This document shows positions 25,012 to 40,115 of a stretch of DNA of 64,000 nucleotides, in pieces; positions within the stretch are counted from its first letter, which is position 1; the number at the start of each line of letters is the position of its first letter. The position numbers were made by a program, and so were the translations under genes. The stretch lies in sequence record PQ850605.1. The stretch is one strand, 5' to 3'. The DNA is from Escherichia phage HansTraber_Bas100. The notes beneath the pieces were generated by a model, which was not told where the DNA came from, did no database searches, and was given only the letters and a program-made list of their open reading frames with translations.

Positions 25012-25989
25012 TTAAAAATACTCCATATCGGTAATATCACGGAAGCATTTATACAAAGCAGAGCGCGGCACGTCGACGATGCCAAAGTTAAAGAATTTAT
25101 ACGTTAGGTATTTATCGCGATAGTTCTCGCGATTCTCCCAAAGCATTTTACGCTCTGCCATAGGCATTGAACCAGCGGAGACGCGGAAAGGAATCATTTC
25201 ACCTTTCTCATCCACATATTTTGGATTGACGACTACGAATGAGCCAAGGTATCCTTTCGCAACTAAACCTTCAGCCTCTTTTGAACGCTTGGTGCGACCC
25301 AATTCGTCAATGAATGCTTCGTTGTTGTTCTCCATCATCTCAACGAAGTCTATGATCAACCCTTCTTCATCGGTCCACGGCTTGTCCTTCCACACATCAC
25401 GTGACTTCGGCGTCGCGCGGCCATGCTTATATTTGCCCGTCCAAGACTTGCCATACAAGCCTTCATAGCCAAGCTGGTCTGCTTCGATTTGCATTGCCGC
25501 GTACTGGTCCATATTTTCGATGTTGCGATATTCGAGAGCGCGAAGGAATGGACGTCGGCCATGGTCAATGAGATGTTGATTGACCTCAGCAACACGTCGA
25601 TTGTACTTCTCATAACGGGCCGAGAATGGCAAATCAGGTTCGCTAAAGTCATCAAACACCCACCATGTAAAGTTAGTGATTGCATCAGTGTTCATGCATG
25701 CAGTATAGGCCTGTTGCATGACGTTCTTGTCATTTGGATTGCCGTCGATTAGCTCTCCATCAAGTCCGTGAATTAATTCACCCAAGAAGAGGAACTCTTT
25801 TTTGATTTGAATGTTGCGCAGCGCCATGCCGGACGTGCCCATTGGCAAGTTGTCATACGCCATTGCGCGTATGCCATCGACCTTGAATGACAATCCGCAA
25901 GGCAGCGGCACGTCTTCGCCGCGCTCGATTATTTGCTTACGCTGGCAACCCTTCATTGGTTTTAATGCTTTGATTTCTCCTGCCATCAC
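25012..25989 (-). CDS. ATP-dependent DNA ligase
   Basis: Adenylation motif FKVDGIRA (K-x-DG) near the N-terminus, followed by DGELIDG, EGLYGK and KDK motifs. Confidence 0.6.
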   Translation of the reverse strand: MMAGEIKALKPMKGCQRKQIIERGEDVPLPCGLSFKVDGIRAMAYDNLPMGTSGMALRNIQIKKEFLFLGELIHGLDGELIDGNPNDKNVMQQAYTACMNTDAITNFTWWVFDDFSEPDLPFSARYEKYNRRVAEVNQHLIDHGRRPFLRALEYRNIENMDQYAAMQIEADQLGYEGLYGKSWTGKYKHGRATPKSRDVWKDKPWTDEEGLIIDFVEMMENNNEAFIDELGRTKRSKEAEGLVAKGYLGSFVVVNPKYVDEKGEMIPFRVSAGSMPMAERKMLWENRENYRDKYLTYKFFNFGIVDVPRSALYKCFRDITDMEYF

Positions 25990-26579
25990 TCAAACTCCTT
26001 ATTCATCACTTGTTCCAGCGCATAGGCGTAATCCTGATCAGTCGATTTGATAAACGTGCCGTTGTACATGACGCCTTTGCGGTCTTTGATGTCTTCGTAG
26101 GCAGCTTGCGCACAGTCGGATAAGCGAAGGCCATAATCATGAGCTACGCCGGAAAGGTAATCGACTGCGGCCATGATGTTGACGTCAATATCCATGGTTT
26201 GATTCTTGGCAATAGCATCACCAAGTCGTCCAAGGGTCTTTGCCAGGCGAAGGATAAATGAATGAGGGTGAGCGCCTTTATCAGCGCAACCGCCGCCATT
26301 AATGTTTTCGATTTCAGCACCGTTTTGCGCTGCCAGGATGGTCAACACAACAAGGCAATCGCCAATGTCGTCCTTAATTGCAGCTTGCAAGTCACAGATG
26401 GCCTGCTCTGTATATCCAATTTCAGGGTCGAAGAACACAAGGTCATGGAGTTGATCAACGTGGTCGGTTAACTCCCCAAACTCGCTGATAAGCTTCGGGT
26501 ATTGGTCCTTAAGGTCGCAACCTTGGATGATGTTACGGTCAGAAGCCCACTGGCGAATGTTTGCATAAATCTGTTTCAT
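25986..26579 (-). CDS. mazG: MazG-like nucleoside triphosphate pyrophosphohydrolase
   Basis: LISEFGELTDHVD and IKDDIGDCLVVLTILA match the MazG E-x-x-E-L-x-D / D-x-x-G-D helical motifs. Confidence 0.5.
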   Translation of the reverse strand: MKQIYANIRQWASDRNIIQGCDLKDQYPKLISEFGELTDHVDQLHDLVFFDPEIGYTEQAICDLQAAIKDDIGDCLVVLTILAAQNGAEIENINGGGCADKGAHPHSFILRLAKTLGRLGDAIAKNQTMDIDVNIMAAVDYLSGVAHDYGLRLSDCAQAAYEDIKDRKGVMYNGTFIKSTDQDYAYALEQVMNKEFE

Positions 26580-34386: not shown

Positions 34387-34938
34387 TTATACGGTGTACG
34401 GAGTACCGTCTTGATTCAAGCGCACGATGAATTTCAAATCGACGCCGATGATTTCACGCGTATCAAAGATCACATAGTTGTAACGACGTTGGCCAGCAAT
34501 GTTTGGGTTGGTGTGAGAGTCAGTCACGACTTCCTGTGCAACCTGAATGCCTTCTTCGCTAAAGAACTTACGCCATTCGGCAAGTTCAACGGCAGTAACG
34601 TGCATGCCAAGATGGCTCACTTGATTGTCGTGCGCATCGAGCATTTCGATGTTTTCTTCAATCCAGTTACACCCTTTTGTATAGTCGAGAATTTCAAGCT
34701 CAAGAGGCTTACCAGCGCCGCCATCCGTGCCATTGCCAGACTGATAGTTGAAGCGCAAGTCAGCTTCATTGGTGCAATCGTCGCGACGACCTTTAAAGTC
34801 ATCAGCTTCAAATACGCGACCAGTAGCAACAACATGATCATGGAACCATTCTGTCAGGCCGATTTTAGCCAAGAAATCCTGTGCGCGCTGAGCATCTGGA
34901 ATTGACAGGGCGATTTGTTCAATTTTAAAATGTGGCAT
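34387..34938 (-). CDS. hypothetical protein (possible VOC/glyoxalase-like fold)
   Basis: 183 aa; fold assignment is weak, based only on general composition. Confidence 0.3.
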   Translation of the reverse strand: MPHFKIEQIALSIPDAQRAQDFLAKIGLTEWFHDHVVATGRVFEADDFKGRRDDCTNEADLRFNYQSGNGTDGGAGKPLELEILDYTKGCNWIEENIEMLDAHDNQVSHLGMHVTAVELAEWRKFFSEEGIQVAQEVVTDSHTNPNIAGQRRYNYVIFDTREIIGVDLKFIVRLNQDGTPYTV

Positions 34939-35035
34939 TTTTGTTTCCTTAATTAAATATTATTGATTAATTACTGTGTTGTCTTCGTCCTGTTTCTTTT
35001 CAGGAGCGGGTGTGACAACTTCAAATGTTCGTGAT

Positions 35036-35719
35036 TTATTTACCAAATGGAATATCAGTACCAGACATAAAGCGCCATGCGCCAGTAATTAAGATATGGC
35101 GAATGAAGTCGGCAATTACTTGCGGCTCAGTCTCCAATCCATTCATCAATGCCTTTTTCTGGTATTCAGCGGCGTATTCAGGAGTCCAGCCGCGAGTCGC
35201 ACAAACGGCATCTTCAATCTGTTTAGACATGCCGGTGCCGCGCAACTTGTTAGGACTAATAGAGAATACCGTGATGCCGTACTTAGGCGTAAGTTCGTGA
35301 GCCATCTGCTTGCTGATCATAAGCGCAGCAGCCTTGGATGCATTATAACACAAGCTGGACGTCATAGGAATATGCGCAGCGTTGGAAACGATGTTGATCA
35401 CAAAGCCTTTGTTGTCGATAAGACTTTTCAGCGCAGCCTGAGTCGTGTTAACGAAAGAGAATGCGTTGGTGTGCATAACGCGGTTAAACTCTTCATAGTT
35501 TACATCTTCAAACCAATTGTTAGAGTTGACACCAGCACAGTTGATCAAGCCTTCAACATCATATGGGCTTAAAATTTCTTTCATCTGTTTAGCATCGCGG
35601 ACGTCATATCCGTATGCTGAATCGATGCCAAGCACGTTATGACCGTAAGCGCCAAGGGTGTCAAAAATAGATTTACCAAGACCGGAATTGGAACCTGTTA
35701 CAACAATTACTTTTTTCAT
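35036..35719 (-). CDS. short-chain dehydrogenase/reductase (SDR)
   Basis: N-terminal VTGSNSGLGKS (TGxxxGxG) and catalytic YNASK (Y-x-x-x-K). Confidence 0.65.
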   Translation of the reverse strand: MKKVIVVTGSNSGLGKSIFDTLGAYGHNVLGIDSAYGYDVRDAKQMKEILSPYDVEGLINCAGVNSNNWFEDVNYEEFNRVMHTNAFSFVNTTQAALKSLIDNKGFVINIVSNAAHIPMTSSLCYNASKAAALMISKQMAHELTPKYGITVFSISPNKLRGTGMSKQIEDAVCATRGWTPEYAAEYQKKALMNGLETEPQVIADFIRHILITGAWRFMSGTDIPFGK

Positions 35720-35785
35720 TTATTTATCCTTTTTTGGACTTCGTTTCGATGAGGTAAATATAACTCATCGAAACGCACAAGTAAA

Positions 35786-36661
35786 CTATTTATTGAAATT
35801 AATATTATGGGTGTTGACAAGACGTTCACACATGGCGCTATAAACACCATCGTCGTGTATCGAGTCTTCATGCTTCAGGCCGCTGATTGCGAAGCGTGTA
35901 AGCTTGACAATCTTAAGCTCGAACAGGTGCCACATGTGGTAGTCTTCCGGTGTCTTCAACGTTACGCCATTAGGGAACAACACCTGCATAACCTGACCTA
36001 CCATCACAGCGTTATCGCCATAAACGGCATTGCGCTCACGGAAGGTCGCGGCCATCGCATCAAGAATATCAGCAGCGGTTGCTGGGGCTTGTTGTTCAAC
36101 TTCAACAAGTTTAGTCTCTTCTTTTCCTGTTGCACTTGGATCAACTGCTAATTGTTGCACCACTTCACCTGCCTTGCAAAGATTAAATGTAAAGGCGATT
36201 TTATTTTGCGCCATGGAATTATAATGCAAAGCTTCTTCTTGCATCCGCGCGAGTACGTCTTGTCTATCTTCAAATACGTTGATTATTCGATAATCGCCGT
36301 GTCGCAATACATACGATAACCATGCAGATTTCATAACAGTTGATGGACGCTTGTCGCCATGTTCTCTCATCTTGATTGTGAATTCATCAAAAGGGAAAAC
36401 GTTGTCCAGACGTTCAAAAGTGACTTGTCTGTATTTTTCTGGTCTTGCAGTCCAATATTCGACCGCCTCACCGCGAAGTGATGCCGTCTCTACTGCTGAC
36501 GCAATGTTAGGATAGAACTGATCATAACCAATGCCGCTGTGGTAATCATCATAGTCGGACAACGGGCCTGCCACCCTGATACGGTCTAAGCGCCAACGGT
36601 CATCAAACAGAGTTCCGTCAAGGTCGAATACGTTTAAGATTTGGTTATTTTTGATACTCAT
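35786..36661 (-). CDS. HAD-superfamily hydrolase with C-terminal extension
   Basis: Motif I FDLDGTL near the N-terminus; ~120-aa C-terminal domain of unknown function; stop overlaps the ThyX-like gene. Confidence 0.55.
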   Translation of the reverse strand: MSIKNNQILNVFDLDGTLFDDRWRLDRIRVAGPLSDYDDYHSGIGYDQFYPNIASAVETASLRGEAVEYWTARPEKYRQVTFERLDNVFPFDEFTIKMREHGDKRPSTVMKSAWLSYVLRHGDYRIINVFEDRQDVLARMQEEALHYNSMAQNKIAFTFNLCKAGEVVQQLAVDPSATGKEETKLVEVEQQAPATAADILDAMAATFRERNAVYGDNAVMVGQVMQVLFPNGVTLKTPEDYHMWHLFELKIVKLTRFAISGLKHEDSIHDDGVYSAMCERLVNTHNINFNK

Positions 36662-37461
36662 CCTTTTGATACTCCATCTTTGGCAACTGGATTATTGGTG
36701 ATTGGCATCGCATCCCAAAACTGGATGCGCAACTCTTCTTGCTGTGCAGTGGTATCCATCCAATCACGATACCATGGGCAATGGGCCTTACCGTGACGAG
36801 GAAATGCGCACTTACCCATACCGATGCACTGCGGCTGTAGTAAAGGATTGGCCCACGGGTGCACCTTAAGGACTTCCGCAACCATTGCACGGAATACTTC
36901 TTGATACTCGCCTTGAGTACGCGTGCACAAGCGGTTAGAGGCCATTTGTTGTAGAGTGCGCAAGTTGAACTTTGCCATGATATGCGTTTGCATATTAGAA
37001 GGCAACACGGCACGTGCATCTTGAATCTCTGCACCAGCCGCGCGAAGTTCTTGGTATAGGGCGTCAATGGTTGCCATTGCATCATCCCACTTCTCTGCAA
37101 GTTCAGCGGCCTTCTTGTCGTGACGAGTCCATCCCCTTGGATCATCCTCTGGGTAAGTGAATTTAGCAGGACGAATCGCATCAAATGCAGAAGATTCCTG
37201 AGCGCGGCTGGTGCGTTCTTGATATGCGCCTGTGCGTGTGCGTACCATCTGATGAGTCATATTCTTTGATACAGCGGTGATGTCAAAGATATAGTCCACA
37301 AAGTCAAAAGGCGACTTGATGGTGTCAAGCATGTAGTGCCAATGCTCTTGCTTCTCTGATTCCGTCATCTCAGAGACAGGCTTACCAGTCATGCGCGTGC
37401 TCTTTGTTTCCAGCAAAAGGTCAAGTGCATCTTGGGTGTATCGAATTAATTCAACTTTCAT
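36658..37461 (-). CDS. thyX: flavin-dependent thymidylate synthase (ThyX)-like protein, variant signature
   Basis: SPFDFVDYIFDITAVSKNMTHQMVRTRTGAYQERTSR and ARAVLPSNMQTHIMAKFNLRTLQQMASNR align with ThyX motifs, but RHR-x7-S appears as RTR-x7-T. Confidence 0.6.
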   Translation of the reverse strand: MKVELIRYTQDALDLLLETKSTRMTGKPVSEMTESEKQEHWHYMLDTIKSPFDFVDYIFDITAVSKNMTHQMVRTRTGAYQERTSRAQESSAFDAIRPAKFTYPEDDPRGWTRHDKKAAELAEKWDDAMATIDALYQELRAAGAEIQDARAVLPSNMQTHIMAKFNLRTLQQMASNRLCTRTQGEYQEVFRAMVAEVLKVHPWANPLLQPQCIGMGKCAFPRHGKAHCPWYRDWMDTTAQQEELRIQFWDAMPITNNPVAKDGVSKG

Positions 37462-37474
37462 TTTAATTATCCTA

Positions 37475-37921
37475 TTAACGGTAATTTACTAGTTGCTGAT
37501 CACCAGAGAAGGTGCAATGATAAACGAATTGTGCGTTATAAAGCAACTGAAAACTTTTCTTTGGTTCATTATTAGAACTCATTGATGTAAAGATTTCTGC
37601 ACCAGAACGGTTTTCACCAATCAGGTTGATAAAGCCGCCAGTTGAACGAGGCTGAACGAAAGTGAAACGTTGCATCCAAGGAGTGCGGTTGGCACCTTTG
37701 CCTGTGAATCCTTGAATCTGAATATTCAGACCTTCTTGCTCGTTCACGCCGATGTAAGCCGTGATAGTTGCGCCAGTGGCTGCTGCGGTTTTACCGTCCA
37801 TCGCTTCGCAATCATACACAGCGATTGAATCGGAAGTACGGACAGCGGCTTCAGTCGCTTCCATATACATGGTGCCGAGAATAGCAGTTGCGGCAAGCGC
37901 GATTCCAGTGATTCGTTTCAT
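37475..37921 (-). CDS. secreted protein with signal peptide
   Basis: N-terminus MKRITGIALAATAILGTMYMEA is signal-peptide-like. Confidence 0.4.
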   Translation of the reverse strand: MKRITGIALAATAILGTMYMEATEAAVRTSDSIAVYDCEAMDGKTAAATGATITAYIGVNEQEGLNIQIQGFTGKGANRTPWMQRFTFVQPRSTGGFINLIGENRSGAEIFTSMSSNNEPKKSFQLLYNAQFVYHCTFSGDQQLVNYR

Positions 37922-37986
37922 TTTCGTTTCCTCTATGAGTTCTGCTTCAATGATTAAAGTATACGCCCATTGAAGCAGAAAGCAAA

Positions 37987-38982
37987 TTATTTATTAGCAA
38001 TATAAGCAAATTTTTGATAGTTATTTGCTTTGATGAGTTTTTCAACTTCAACAAGGTCATGAGCGACATCATCAAGCAAAATGTTGCGCCAGGTAGCAAA
38101 TCGACCGACACTAAACACGTTCAAATCCATAGTCAGCTGCAGGAGTAGGGCGTGTCGCAAGTCCTTCGGAATGTCGACAATCTTGCCATATTTCTGGTCG
38201 ACCTTTTCAACTTCTTCAAGAGTAATGTCACTCCATGAGAGGCCAAAGGCTGTCAACACTTCGTCGACTTCTGCGCGCAGCTTCATGTCGCGGTAACGAG
38301 TGATGCCGCCTGCGGCTTCAACTGCAGCTGCACTTACGCTGACCAAAGGAATGGTTTCGATGATAAGTGTGTCACCAGTGATTGATGCGCGGTAAGTTCT
38401 GACGGAGTAGTCAGGGAAGTAAATTGTCTGATACAACTCACACTTACGTTTAATCTTAAAGCGGTAAACACGAATGTTTGTTTTATCAAATGAAAAATCA
38501 AGCTTTTGATCAATCCCAGCCAGCTTCATCATAACTGGAAGCGGCGACGTGTTGATGATTGGCGTCTCGCTATAGCCGCAAAGCGTGTCAACCGGAGTGT
38601 TAAAGAATATACGGTCCCCCAGTTTATCGACAAGCTGATCATAGAAGTCGTCTGGCGCAATATAACGCGTTGCAGTTTTAAGCTTCATGATTGAGCGGCT
38701 GCCAAACTGATTGGTGACCTTCATGGAATACATATTGGCAAGGTTGATTGGGCAATGGTCGTGATAGTAGTTACCGCGAAAATACACAGCCTTGTCAACT
38801 GTCACTGCCTTAAAAGGGATTCCGGTAATACGGCTTACTTCTTCGCCGCGAAAGCGTAGCAGCGCCTTGTGCTGTGGCGCTCGCTCCCCTGCTTCGTACA
38901 CAATAGAGTTCGGGAAGTGACACGCGGTAATAAGTCCTGCCAAACCGCCGCCGATAATCATTACAGGTTGTTTCATGTTCAT
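37987..38982 (-). CDS. FAD/NAD(P)-binding oxidoreductase
   Basis: N-terminal VMIIGGGLAGL Rossmann G-x-G-x-x-G dinucleotide-binding motif; 331 aa. Confidence 0.55.
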   Translation of the reverse strand: MNMKQPVMIIGGGLAGLITACHFPNSIVYEAGERAPQHKALLRFRGEEVSRITGIPFKAVTVDKAVYFRGNYYHDHCPINLANMYSMKVTNQFGSRSIMKLKTATRYIAPDDFYDQLVDKLGDRIFFNTPVDTLCGYSETPIINTSPLPVMMKLAGIDQKLDFSFDKTNIRVYRFKIKRKCELYQTIYFPDYSVRTYRASITGDTLIIETIPLVSVSAAAVEAAGGITRYRDMKLRAEVDEVLTAFGLSWSDITLEEVEKVDQKYGKIVDIPKDLRHALLLQLTMDLNVFSVGRFATWRNILLDDVAHDLVEVEKLIKANNYQKFAYIANK

Positions 38983-39061
38983 TTGTCCTTTGTGGGTGAT
39001 ATGAGAAGTATAATAGCTAAATTATTTTACAGCAACAAGTCATTTCTATTTAGTACAGACG

Positions 39062-39088
39062 AAAAAAGACCCACAACAAGTGTGGGTC
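39062..39088 (-). terminator. rho-independent terminator
   Basis: On the - strand GACCCACACTTGTTGTGGGTC hairpin followed by TTTTTT, downstream of the repeat-protein gene. Confidence 0.55.
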
Positions 39089-39116
39089 AATTACCGCTAT
39101 ATAACCGTCCTACAGG

Positions 39117-39962
39117 TTATTCCGCTTGATCACCGTCTTCAGCATCGTCGTTGGATTCAACATCGACAAACTCGATGTGGCCCATCTCTTCCAGCTTGCT
39201 CAGGTAGGAGCGAACGGAAGCGCCAAACAGTTGATCTTTAACTTTCTCGCCCAGCTCATCGATAGACTGTGCCACGCCAACTTCGCCTTCTTTGATCGCA
39301 GCCAGAACGCGTCCACGGGTGGAATGCTCTTGCGGCTGGCTCAGGCCATTACCAGTGTAGATGAAGTGAGTAGCTTTTGCACGACGCTGACCGTTTGCCT
39401 TTTTAGCAGCCTTACGTTCTGCGATGGCTTTGCGACGTTCTTCAGCTTCTTTCTTACGCTGTTCTTTCTGCTGTTCTGCAGCTTCTTTCGCCGCAATCTT
39501 AGCAGCTTCACGCTCTGCCTTGCGTTTCGCTTTAGCTTCTTCTTTGGCCTTCTCTTTTTCGGCCTTCGCTGCAGCACGGGCTTGATCACGCTCTGCTTTC
39601 TTAGCAGCAGCTTGTTCAGCTTTCAGGCGCTTGGCTTCTTCTTTAGCCTTTGCCTTTTCGATTTCTTTCGCTGCTTTAGCGGCTTCACGCTCTGCTTTCT
39701 TAGCAGCGGCCTTTTCTGCACGCTCTTTAGCTTTCTTGGCTGCTTCTTCAGCACGCTTCTGAGCCTTCTCATCAGCAGCCTGCTTGCGTTTCAGCGCAGC
39801 TTCTTCACGCTTGGCTTGTTTTTCCTGCTCACGCTTCTGGCGTTTTTCTTCGGCTTCTTTCTTTTTAGCCAGGCGTTTTTCTTCAGCCACGCGACGACGT
39901 TCTGCTGCAGCTGCTTGTTTTTCTTCTTTAGATAATACTTTGATTGCTTCGGCCATGTTCAC
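39117..39962 (-). CDS. Lys/Ala/Glu-rich repeat protein (TolA-like helical region) with ~80-aa C-terminal globular domain
   Basis: ~200 aa of KAEE/AAKK-type repeats visible at DNA level; distinct C-terminal domain. Confidence 0.5.
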   Translation of the reverse strand: MNMAEAIKVLSKEEKQAAAAERRRVAEEKRLAKKKEAEEKRQKREQEKQAKREEAALKRKQAADEKAQKRAEEAAKKAKERAEKAAAKKAEREAAKAAKEIEKAKAKEEAKRLKAEQAAAKKAERDQARAAAKAEKEKAKEEAKAKRKAEREAAKIAAKEAAEQQKEQRKKEAEERRKAIAERKAAKKANGQRRAKATHFIYTGNGLSQPQEHSTRGRVLAAIKEGEVGVAQSIDELGEKVKDQLFGASVRSYLSKLEEMGHIEFVDVESNDDAEDGDQAE

Positions 39963-40115
39963 AGTCCTTAAATAAATTAGTTTATTTTATATTCCCCGTT
40001 TGGGATAACTTAATTATGCCTTCAGTCGCCGCCAGTAGCAACTAAAAACTATGGCGGCGATGCCACTTTAATTAAACTGATTTTCAGTTTTATTTTTCGT
40101 AAATTTACGTCAACA

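What the first reader, a model, noticed from the sequence alone, without database searches (positions are those of the whole stretch)
36658..37461. ThyX-like protein with altered signature (RTR-x7-T instead of RHR-x7-S)
The protein aligns with ThyX over both conserved blocks, but the His of the RHR motif and the following conserved Ser are both replaced by Thr. Changes at substrate-contacting positions could indicate altered substrate or product, although this is speculative without structural analysis.
Basis: partly seen in the sequence, partly recalled or inferred. Interest (0 to 1): 0.55.

Follow-up and report, generated by a model that had tools for sequence, protein, structure and literature searches.

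The report
Virus-only ThyX variant with flavoprotein partner
This phage gene belongs to a virus-only branch of the flavin-dependent thymidylate synthase (ThyX) family that has lost several residues invariant in cellular ThyX and almost always sits beside an uncharacterised flavoprotein, so it probably still makes thymidylate but in a way nobody has tested.

Summary
ORF 36658-37461 (-) of this Wifcevirus-like E. coli phage encodes a 267-aa ThyX/Thy1 protein with R74-T75-R76-x7-T84 in place of RHR-x7-S.

- All residues that bind dUMP in T. maritima ThyX are kept, so a new nucleotide substrate is unlikely.
- The two substitutions belong to a larger coordinated change: H53→I, H59→F, H79→T, Y91→A, W181→G, I183→Y (T. 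maritima numbering).
- This change defines a clade seen only in viruses. Of 79 cellular relatives, 77 have RHR..S..RY and none has Thr.
- Within the viral clade, position 79 varies (T/S/N/H) and the Ser position varies (S/T/A).

The new result is a gene pairing. The clade's gene lies behind a UDP-galactopyranose-mutase-fold flavoprotein (phrog_4828) in 79/80 loci, and 75/79 in the reciprocal test. It usually lies before a PNKP-type HAD phosphatase. None of 79 cellular ThyX loci has either neighbour.

Most likely this is a thymidylate synthase with remodelled flavin/folate-side chemistry, helped by the partner. A different product is not excluded; Wifceviruses resist restriction with no known mechanism. 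No member of the clade has been assayed.

The parts
36658..37461 (-). ThyX-like CDS, 267 aa (viral-type Thy1 family member)
   Evidence: ORF. Pfam Thy1 E 4.9e-30. AlphaFold model pLDDT 93.8. Foldseek best hits are T. maritima FDTS, probability 1.0, TM 0.75 over 206 columns.
37470..37473 (-). Shine-Dalgarno-like AGGA, 8 nt before the ATG
   Evidence: Read directly from the minus-strand sequence.
37201..37242 (-). Altered ThyX motif R74-T75-R76-T-G-A-Y-Q-E-R-T84-S-R86-A87 (canonical R-H-R-x7-S-x-R-Y)
   Evidence: Ungapped alignment to T. maritima ThyX. Column statistics.
37300..37323 (-). T47-I48 ... F54, replacing G52-H53 ... H59 of canonical ThyX (H53 is the folate/flavin-stacking His)
   Evidence: Cellular relatives: H53 100%, H59 91%. 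Viral type: I/V/L and F. Role of H53 from PMC11940539.
36904..36933 (-). R177-L-C179-T-R-T-Q-G184-E-Y186 block: the activating Arg (Tm R174) is kept, W181->G, I183->Y
36778..36828 (-). C-terminal extension carrying C212, C218 and C228, which with C179 form a conserved four-Cys set
   Evidence: The four Cys are conserved in the cellular relatives (77/77 at three of the positions, 67/77 at the last) and in the query subclade. They are absent in T. maritima ThyX. The extension is modelled at pLDDT 97-98.
37987..38982 (-). Partner flavoprotein, 331 aa, GxGxxG at the N-terminus, UDP-galactopyranose-mutase / protoporphyrinogen-oxidase-like fold (phrog_4828)
37475..37921 (-). 148-aa ORF with a hydrophobic N-terminus, inserted between the flavoprotein and ThyX genes
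   Evidence: No family match. Found in only 2/80 related loci, so it is not a conserved part of the module.
35786..36661 (-). HAD phosphatase of the PNKP type plus a C-terminal domain of about 85 aa with no family match; its start overlaps the thyX stop by 4 nt (ATGA)
   Evidence: Pfam HAD_PNKP 3.6e-07 and PHROG 4889 1.3e-116. Present in 70/80 and 64/79 viral loci. C-terminal domain has no Pfam or PDB match.
35036..35719 (-). Short-chain dehydrogenase/reductase (FabG-like)
   Evidence: Pfam adh_short 2.6e-31. Present in 37/80 and 38/79 related loci.
34387..34938 (-). Glyoxalase/VOC-superfamily-like protein, 183 aa
   Evidence: Weak Pfam Glyoxalase_4 match, 0.009. Annotated as glyoxalase family in phage Mansfield. 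Present in 34/80 and 32/79 related loci.
39068..39088 (-). Intrinsic-terminator-like hairpin upstream of the flavoprotein gene (start of the putative transcription unit)
   Evidence: 8-bp stem, 5 GC pairs, T run. A terminator is annotated at the equivalent place in phage Mansfield.
34351..34370 (-). Intrinsic-terminator-like hairpin after the VOC gene (end of the putative transcription unit)
   Evidence: 8-bp stem, 7 GC pairs, T run. A terminator is annotated at the equivalent place in phage Mansfield.

Best explanation
The ORF encodes a member of a virus-specific branch of the ThyX (Thy1) flavin-dependent thymidylate synthase family.

Shown:
- It has the ThyX fold.
- It keeps the residues that hold dUMP and polarise the uracil: Q71, R74, R76, E82, R86, R150, R177 (equivalent to T. 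maritima Q75, R78, R80, E86, R90, R147, R174). It also keeps N166/R168 (N163/R165).
- It has lost a coordinated set of residues invariant in cellular ThyX: H53, H59, H79, Y91, W181.
- It lies in a terminator-bracketed gene string with a UGM-fold flavoprotein and a PNKP-type HAD phosphatase, and these accompany this ThyX branch almost everywhere.

Inferred:
- It binds FAD and dUMP and transfers a one-carbon unit to C5 to give dTMP. This would top up dTTP for the phage's own Pol III-type replicase in a genome that carries no ThyA, dCMP deaminase, DHFR or RNR.
- The histidine that stacks on folate and on the reduced flavin is gone, as is the H53-Y91 latch. The reductive half-reaction and/or the handling of the methylene donor must therefore differ from the T. 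maritima enzyme.
- The partner flavoprotein most likely serves that half of the reaction by supplying electrons or the one-carbon unit.
- The His->Thr and Ser->Thr changes are lineage markers of this remodelling. They are not switches of nucleotide specificity.
For: - Family and fold.
- dUMP-side residues are invariant in 98 representatives and in the comparison of 54 viral with 77 cellular sequences.
- Purifying constraint: RTR occurs in 120/120 close homologues.
- The clade is separate from cellular ThyX in 99/100 neighbour-joining bootstraps.
- Cellular ThyX are canonical in 77/79. The only RTR 'cellular' locus is a phage contig carrying the same module.
- No second thymidylate synthase and no dCMP deaminase, DHFR or NrdA is found in the window or within 10 kb in 159 related viral loci. 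This is as expected if the gene is the phage's own thymidylate synthase.
- In a 206-kb Rhizobium phage the same trio sits beside dUTPase and ribonucleotide reductase.
- Pairing with the flavoprotein: 79/80 loci, 75/79 in the reciprocal test, and 0/79 cellular loci. Genus counts in the phage collection are identical for the two genes: Pseudomonas 292/292, Escherichia 26/26, Serratia 9/9.
- S88A is active (PMC4913046).
- DNA of PB1-like phages, which carry the same clade, was cut by restriction enzymes without comment, whereas YuA-like phages in the same study were flagged as resistant (PMC4482731).
Against: - No member of this clade has been assayed, as far as ten literature searches could find.
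- The score against NCBIfam's thyX equivalog model is below its cut-off (81.6 against 87.9).
- Y91 and H53 are described as conserved and important, and Y91 mutation slows flavin oxidation about 1000-fold in T. maritima (PMC11940539). Activity here needs an unidentified compensation.
- The string of flavoprotein, phosphatase, SDR and VOC genes is more than thymidylate synthesis is known to need.
- Other non-canonical phage ThyX (mycobacteriophage Leopard RSR, Gordonia phage Gibbin RQR) lack the flavoprotein within 6 kb. The partner therefore cannot be a general compensation for losing the histidines.
- Shared gene order could partly reflect common descent of a replication module.
Confidence: 0.5

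Rival explanations
1. It is an ordinary ThyX thymidylate synthase. The altered motif is neutral or mildly adaptive drift in a fast-evolving viral lineage, and the neighbouring flavoprotein and phosphatase are unrelated genes that merely share a conserved replication module.
For: - Position 79 toggles among T/S/N/H and the Ser position among S/T/A within the clade.
- S88A is active (PMC4913046).
- Public records annotate the gene as thymidylate synthase.
- Most loci with the pairing also share Pol III alpha downstream, which suggests common ancestry of the whole module.
Against: - Five positions that are 91-100% conserved in 77 cellular relatives change together and then stay fixed (I/V/L, F, non-Tyr, G, Y) across the clade. 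That is not drift.
- The pairing persists in a 206-kb Rhizobium phage with a different genome architecture and in a 42-kb Vibrio phage.
- The pairing holds at 33-45% protein identity, with the two genes usually less than 400 nt apart.
Confidence: 0.2
2. The ThyX-like enzyme, together with the flavoprotein, phosphatase, SDR and VOC proteins, makes a non-canonical C5-substituted pyrimidine nucleotide. One example would be 5-hydroxymethyl-dUMP, formed by water capture of the exocyclic methylene intermediate or by flavin-dependent hydroxylation of dTMP. The modified nucleotide ends up in phage DNA and accounts for the restriction resistance of Wifceviruses.
For: [quoted passage not shown]
- The residues lost (S88->T, Y91->A, H53->I) are those proposed to manage the flavin carbinolamine/methylene step (PMC11940539).
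- Six metabolic-looking genes lie between two terminators.
- The score is below the thyX equivalog cut-off.
- Thymidylate synthase ThyA homologues are known to have been recruited for modified pyrimidines (PMC13326640, PMC8989533).
Against: - No nucleotide kinase, glycosyl or other group transferase, or DNA-level modification gene is annotated in these genomes.
- No PADLOC hit or other family hit points to modification.
- The core trio is shared with Pbunaviruses, whose DNA is routinely cut by restriction enzymes (PMC4482731).
- SDR and VOC are present in only about 45% of loci.
- No ThyX-family hydroxymethylase was found in the literature searched.
Confidence: 0.17
3. It acts on a ribonucleotide or another uridine compound, like the ThyX paralogue PolB (a UMP/dUMP C5-methylase of polyoxin biosynthesis), or it is a catalytically dead ThyX with a regulatory or structural role.
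For: - PolB structures are among the Foldseek hits (4p5b, rank 9, TM 0.69).
- The canonical motif is broken.
Against: - The catalytic arginines, Gln and Glu are all invariant under long-term purifying selection, which argues against a dead enzyme.
- The gene sits among DNA replication genes.
- PolB is not a closer match than T. maritima ThyX.
Confidence: 0.06

Closest known systems
Thermotoga maritima ThyX / FDTS (TM0449; PDB 1o26, 4gt9, 8reo)
   Same: - Same fold: Foldseek probability 1.0, TM 0.75 over 206 residues.
- Same Pfam family.
- Same dUMP- and flavin-contacting Arg/Gln/Glu/Asn residues.
   Different: - About 21% identity.
- RHR-x7-S-x-R-Y becomes RTR-x7-T-x-R-A.
- H53, H59 and W181 are replaced.
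- There is a 60-residue C-terminal extension with three Cys, plus a fourth Cys at position 179.
- The gene is always encoded next to a flavoprotein that cellular thyX loci lack.
Cellular 'THQLVRHR'-type ThyX of Clostridia, Bathyarchaeia, Eggerthellaceae and Desulfovibrio (nearest cellular relatives, 26-33% identity)
   Same: - Shares the THQxVR..R block.
- Shares the four-Cys set (R-L-C ... C-x5-6-C-x7-9-C), which suggests descent from this group.
   Different: These keep H53, H59, H79, S88, Y91 and W181 in 91-100% of 77 sequences. They have neither the flavoprotein nor the HAD neighbour.
PolB, ThyX-like UMP/dUMP C5-methylase of polyoxin biosynthesis (PDB 4p5a/4p5b)
   Same: It is a ThyX paralogue recruited into a multi-enzyme pathway. 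The fold is similar.
   Different: - The sequence match is only marginal (E 0.46).
- PolB is a Streptomyces cellular enzyme.
- The residues that give PolB its ribose tolerance were not compared here.
UDP-galactopyranose mutase (for the partner protein; PDB 4dsg, 3hdq)
   Different: - 17% identity or less.
- No Pfam or NCBIfam match of any kind.
- A profile search against PDB sequences finds nothing significant.
- It is about 100 residues shorter than the matched eukaryotic UGMs.
- Protoporphyrinogen and amine oxidases score nearly as well.
ThyA-homologue pyrimidine hydroxymethylases/hydroxylases of phages (dUMP/dCMP hydroxymethylase, 5-hydroxy-dCMP synthase)
   Same: They are a precedent that a thymidylate synthase scaffold with altered active-site residues makes a modified pyrimidine nucleotide for phage DNA (PMC8989533, PMC13326640).
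   Different: They are an unrelated fold (ThyA, not ThyX). Those phages also carry kinases and transferases that are absent here.

Membership tests
ThyX / Thy1 (flavin-dependent thymidylate synthase) | Pfam PF02511 Thy1 domain above the gathering score | tested here: met
   105.2 bits against a cut-off of 24.8; profile positions 2-191 of 191.
ThyX / Thy1 (flavin-dependent thymidylate synthase) | ThyX fold | tested here: met
   AlphaFold model pLDDT 93.8. The top 50 Foldseek hits are almost all ThyX structures (two are the ThyX paralogue PolB), TM up to 0.77 normalised to the target.
ThyX / Thy1 (flavin-dependent thymidylate synthase) | ThyX motif RHR-x7-S (Myllykallio 2002, as cited in PMC2826268) | tested here: not met
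   The query has R74-T75-R76-x7-T84. Two of the four specified residues differ.
ThyX / Thy1 (flavin-dependent thymidylate synthase) | NCBIfam TIGR02170 thyX equivalog score above the curated cut-off | tested here: not met
   81.6 bits against a cut-off of 87.9.
ThyX / Thy1 (flavin-dependent thymidylate synthase) | dUMP-binding and activating residues (Tm Q75, R78, R80, E86, R90, R147, R174) | tested here: met
   All are present in the query (Q71, R74, R76, E82, R86, R150, R177). The arginines and Q75 are 92-100% conserved in 98 representatives; the E86 position is mostly Gln in relatives, with Glu in the query.
ThyX / Thy1 (flavin-dependent thymidylate synthase) | H53 (folate/flavin stacking) and Y91 (active-site loop), described as conserved and important for turnover (PMC11940539) | tested here: not met
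   The query has I48 and A87. Cellular relatives have H 100% and Y 99%. The viral clade has I/V/L and V/T/A/I.
ThyX / Thy1 (flavin-dependent thymidylate synthase) | FAD-bound homotetramer that converts dUMP to dTMP with CH2-H4folate and NAD(P)H | not testable with these tools
   Needs protein biochemistry or thyA complementation. No assay of any clade member was found in the literature searches.
PolB-type UMP/dUMP methylase | Closer similarity to PolB than to thymidylate-forming ThyX | tested here: not met
   PolB 4p5a scores E 0.46, against 4.5e-05 for T. maritima ThyX. Foldseek TM 0.69 against 0.75.
PolB-type UMP/dUMP methylase | PolB-specific loop residues that accommodate the 2'-OH | not tested
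   These determinants were not compared. No residue-level structural superposition was available.
UDP-galactopyranose mutase (partner protein 37987-38982) | Sequence-family membership (Pfam GLF / NAD_binding_8 or equivalent) | tested here: not met
   No Pfam or NCBIfam match. Profile search against PDB sequences is not significant.
UDP-galactopyranose mutase (partner protein 37987-38982) | UGM-like two-domain flavoprotein fold | tested here: met

The most novel reading that the evidence does not exclude
The viral-type ThyX, its UGM-fold flavoprotein and the HAD phosphatase (with SDR and VOC proteins in Wifce- and Carpasinaviruses) form a previously unrecognised nucleotide pathway. There are two versions.
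- A folate- or NADPH-independent thymidylate synthesis, in which the partner flavoprotein delivers electrons or a formaldehyde-level one-carbon unit to a ThyX that has lost its folate-stacking histidine.
- Synthesis of a non-canonical C5-modified pyrimidine that enters phage DNA and explains the so far unexplained restriction resistance of Wifceviruses.
Probability: 0.2. Interest if true: 0.85.

Novelty: new variant of a known kind. Interest (0 to 1): 0.55.

Why it matters
- ThyX is studied as an antibiotic target, and its mechanism has been worked out on a few cellular enzymes that all carry H53, RHR, S88 and Y91.
- A large, strongly constrained viral branch does without those residues. It would show which parts of the mechanism are dispensable or replaceable.
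- Its near-obligate flavoprotein neighbour is a concrete candidate for a new way of feeding electrons or one-carbon units to the enzyme.
- The branch is present in every Pbunavirus, among the Pseudomonas phages most used in therapy, and in Wifceviruses.
- Wifceviruses replicate unusually fast and resist restriction by an unknown mechanism. The operon is therefore a testable lead for both properties.

Tried and rejected
- **Domain fusions.** I scanned ten long ThyX-like proteins for fused domains such as dUTPase or dCMP deaminase that would point to the substrate. Only an intein and a phage gp59-like piece were found.
- **Chlamydial guess.** I guessed that the ~500-aa 'RQR' proteins were chlamydial ThyX, a biochemically proven enzyme (from memory), which would have shown a bona fide ThyX without the His. 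This was not supported: they carry no organism names, sit on contigs of at most 66 kb, and resemble Gordonia phage Gibbin ThyX.
- **Mutagenesis data for the motif His.** The relevant papers (PMC2258874, PMC3465422) are not held. My recollection that residues 78-80 are annotated as FAD-binding is untested.
- **C-terminal domain of the HAD protein.** I suspected it was MazG-like, but it has no Pfam or PDB match.
- **Defence-system models.** PADLOC gave nothing for six genes of the operon.
- **Context of a distant homologue.** The contig carrying P0129 was only 1.4 kb.
- **Nearby dTMP-pathway genes.** ThyA, dCMP deaminase, DHFR and NrdA were searched near the gene in 159 viral loci; none was found. 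tblastn with T4 queries has limited sensitivity.
- **Four-Cys site.** No paper on a metal site in ThyX was found.
- **Tree building.** The first neighbour-joining attempt timed out and a second crashed. The third worked.
Full report
**What the window is.** The region 35000-40000 is 97% identical to Escherichia phage vB_EcoM_WFC and 93-97% identical to other Wifcevirus genomes. Public records annotate the gene in question as 'thymidylate synthase' or 'putative FAD-dependent thymidylate synthase'.

**Checking the observation.**
- ORF 36658-37461 on the minus strand starts with ATG, is preceded by AGGA at an 8-nt spacing, and encodes 267 aa.
- It matches Pfam Thy1 over the whole profile (E 4.9e-30) and PHROG 85.
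- An AlphaFold model built on 60 homologues is confident (pLDDT 93.8). Its best structural matches are T. maritima ThyX structures (TM 0.75 over 206 columns).
- The ungapped alignment to T. maritima ThyX places R74-T75-R76 on R78-H79-R80 and T84 on S88.
- It is not a lesion. All 120 closest homologues, down to 53% identity, have R-T-R, and the Ser position is T in 108, S in 10 and A in 2.

I aligned the query with 98 full-length representatives of 50%-identity clusters. I then compared 54 viral-type sequences with 77 cellular ThyX.
- A coordinated set of changes emerges, in T. maritima numbering with the query residue after the arrow: G52->T47, H53->I48, H59->F54, H79->T75, Y91->A87, F170->M173, W181->G184, I183->Y186.
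- In the 77 cellular sequences these positions are 91-100% conserved as G, H, H, H, Y, F, W, I.
- In the viral set they are T, I/V/L, F, T/S/N, V/T/A/I, L/M, G, Y.
- By contrast Q75, R78, R80, R90, R147, R165 and R174 are invariant or nearly so in both sets.
- According to the literature, R78, R80, S88 and R90 hydrogen-bond dUMP (PMC3498832) and R78 faces N1/C2=O of the reduced flavin (PMC11940539).
- H53 stacks on the folate pterin or on the reduced isoalloxazine and is held by Y91. Mutation of Y91 slows flavin oxidation during methylation about 1000-fold (PMC11940539).
- S88A remains active (PMC4913046).
- The nucleotide side of the active site is therefore intact. The flavin si-face / folate side is remodelled.

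**How common the altered signature is.**
- A scan of one genome per species (185,579 species) used patterns that accepted T, H or S after 'VR'. The 80 loci most similar to the query were kept.
- Of the 79 real ThyX genes in them, 77 read RHR..S..RY, one reads RHR..S..RF and one reads RTR..S..RV.
- The RTR locus is labelled an Elusimicrobiota MAG. It is in fact a PB1-like phage contig with the same flavoprotein - ThyX - HAD phosphatase - Pol III epsilon/alpha string.
- Among viral contigs the altered form is the rule. Position 79 was T 76, H 1, S 1, N 1 in 79 loci seeded with ThyX. It was T 62, S 8, H 2, N 1 in 73 loci seeded with the partner, none with Tyr at position 91.
- Within the viral-type background (no H53, no Y91), 17 of about 90 representatives still have His at position 79. 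That position is relaxed and does not act as a switch.
- A neighbour-joining tree separates the viral set from all 35 sampled cellular ThyX in 99 of 100 bootstraps. A canonical phage ThyX (Bacillus phage Wes44, RHR..S.RY) and T. maritima stay on the cellular side.
It is not met: they are common only in unassayed viral proteins.
- The query also scores just below NCBIfam's thyX equivalog cut-off (81.6 against 87.9).

**The surroundings.**
- Two strong terminator-like hairpins on the minus strand (39088-39068 and 34370-34351) bracket six genes. The same terminators are annotated in phage Mansfield.
- The six genes are:
  - a 331-aa protein with an N-terminal GxGxxG motif (37987-38982);
  - a 148-aa ORF;
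  - the ThyX-like gene;
  - a PNKP-type HAD phosphatase whose start overlaps the thyX stop (35786-36661);
  - an SDR (35036-35719);
  - a VOC/glyoxalase-like protein (34387-34938).
- Pol III epsilon and alpha follow.
- The 331-aa protein has no Pfam or NCBIfam match but belongs to PHROG 4828.
- A sequence profile finds no solved relative.

**The pairing.**

| Loci examined | Flavoprotein gene | ThyX-like gene | HAD phosphatase | SDR | VOC | ThyA / dCMP deaminase / DHFR / NrdA |
|---|---|---|---|---|---|---|
| 80 IMG/VR loci seeded with ThyX (39-98% identity) | 79 | seed | 70 | 37 | 34 | 0 |
| 79 viral loci seeded with a flavoprotein alignment led by a Rhizobium phage homologue | seed | 75 | 64 | 38 | 32 | 0 |
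| 79 cellular canonical thyX loci | 0 | seed | 0 | not a target | not a target | 0 |

- In the ThyX-seeded loci the flavoprotein gene is on the same strand and usually directly upstream. The single miss has the ThyX gene at the contig edge.
- In the flavoprotein-seeded loci the ThyX-like gene is downstream, in most cases less than 400 nt away. Two of the four misses are contig ends.
- In the curated phage collection the two genes have the same genus counts: Pseudomonas 292/292, Escherichia 26/26, Serratia 9/9, Rhizobium 10/8. The ThyX homologues of Gordonia, Mycobacterium, Microbacterium, Bacillus, Clostridium and Streptomyces phages have no such partner.
- The trio also occurs in a 42-kb Vibrio phage. 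It occurs too in a 206-kb Rhizobium phage of unrelated architecture, where it lies beside dUTPase and ribonucleotide reductase.
- Two other non-canonical phage ThyX (Leopard RSR, Gibbin RQR) lack the flavoprotein within 6 kb.

**Interpretation.**
- The conserved dUMP-side residues, the replication context, the dUTPase/RNR context in the Rhizobium phage and the absence of any other thymidylate synthase favour dTMP as the product.
- The loss of the H53-Y91 latch and of three histidines and a tryptophan, together with a near-obligate flavoprotein neighbour, argues that flavin reduction and/or one-carbon loading work differently.
- T. maritima ThyX can load its flavin from formaldehyde, as the titles of PDB entries 7ndw and 7ndz show. 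An oxidase-type partner delivering a formaldehyde-level carbon is therefore chemically conceivable, but nothing here tests it.
- A different product cannot be excluded.
[quoted passage not shown] The operon also contains more enzymes than thymidylate synthesis needs.
  - Against: these genomes encode no nucleotide kinase or transferase. The core trio is shared with Pbunaviruses, whose DNA was digested by restriction enzymes without comment in a study that did flag YuA-like phages as resistant (PMC4482731). No ThyX-type hydroxymethylase was found in the literature.

**Verdict.**
The signature really is aberrant and is restricted to viruses. It marks a whole clade and a remodelled cofactor side, not a changed nucleotide pocket.
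- The thing is a new variant of a known kind: a virus-specific ThyX branch with a dedicated flavoprotein neighbour.
- No member has been tested, so function rests on inference.

Noticed in passing
window 36778-36927 (-): codons for C179, C212, C218, C228: Four cysteines (R-L-C179 ... C212-x5-C218-x9-C228) are conserved in 77/77 cellular relatives at three of the positions and 67/77 at the last; these relatives come mostly from anaerobes (Clostridia, Bathyarchaeia, Eggerthellaceae, Desulfovibrio). They are also conserved in the query subclade. They are absent in T. maritima ThyX and in the viral 'RLSPRAQGEY' subclade. This may be a Zn or Fe-S site. No paper on it was found.
   Followed up: partly
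window 37987-38982 (-): A 331-aa GxGxxG protein of PHROG 4828 with no Pfam, NCBIfam or PDB sequence match, but a UGM / protoporphyrinogen-oxidase-like fold. It has many invariant Arg/Lys residues (HKALLRFR, RASITG, DQKYGKI, GRFATWRN..LLDD), which suggests an anionic, possibly nucleotide, substrate. Public records name it inconsistently: UDP-galactopyranose mutase, polyamine oxidase, oxidoreductase, polysaccharide deacetylase, NTP pyrophosphohydrolase.
   Followed up: yes
window 35786-36661 (-), residues about 207-287: The HAD/PNKP-type phosphatase carries a C-terminal domain of about 85 aa with no Pfam or PDB match. The same domain is attached to the HAD hydrolase next to thyX in Rhizobium phage RHph_TM2_3B (L007 9228-9458). 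In some loci (L008) the HAD domain stands alone as a 149-aa ORF.
   Followed up: partly
window 37475-37921 (-): A 148-aa ORF with a signal-peptide-like hydrophobic N-terminus is inserted between the flavoprotein and ThyX genes. It has no family match and is found in only 2 of 80 related loci.
   Followed up: partly
window 39117-39962 (-): A 281-aa Lys/Ala/Glu-rich low-complexity protein (PHROG 4765; called 'TolA protein' in some records) with a structured C-terminal tail. It lies just upstream of the terminator that precedes the operon.
   Followed up: no
L008 (JAYTIE010000032.1, 'Elusimicrobiota MAG'): This 42-kb contig, binned as a bacterial genome, carries a PB1-like phage replication module: PHROG 4828 - ThyX - HAD - Pol III epsilon/alpha - helicase. 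It is probably a phage contig or a prophage.
   Followed up: partly
L006 5113-6004 (Vibrio phage PVA7, PQ582223.1): The flavoprotein homologue upstream of thyX is annotated as two hypothetical ORFs. tblastn matches both halves in different frames, which suggests a frameshift or a sequencing error. Several other genes in the same record (DNA polymerase, ligase, RadD) are also split.
   Followed up: no
P0170 (637 aa, metagenomic ThyX-like protein): A ThyX-like protein interrupted by an intein (Pfam Intein_splicing, residues 101-462).
   Followed up: no
P0245 and relatives; L250 5857-7056 (Gordonia phage Gibbin): A second non-canonical viral ThyX type, 'RQR..S.RF', 330-630 aa long with N- and C-terminal extensions, on contigs of at most 66 kb. 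The flavoprotein partner is not nearby. Mycobacteriophage Leopard has an 'RSR..S.RA' type.
   Followed up: partly
window 25986-26579 (-): A MazG-like pyrophosphatase (weak Pfam match, E 0.018) is, besides ThyX and the HAD phosphatase, the only other nucleotide-metabolism gene recognised in this genome.
   Followed up: no
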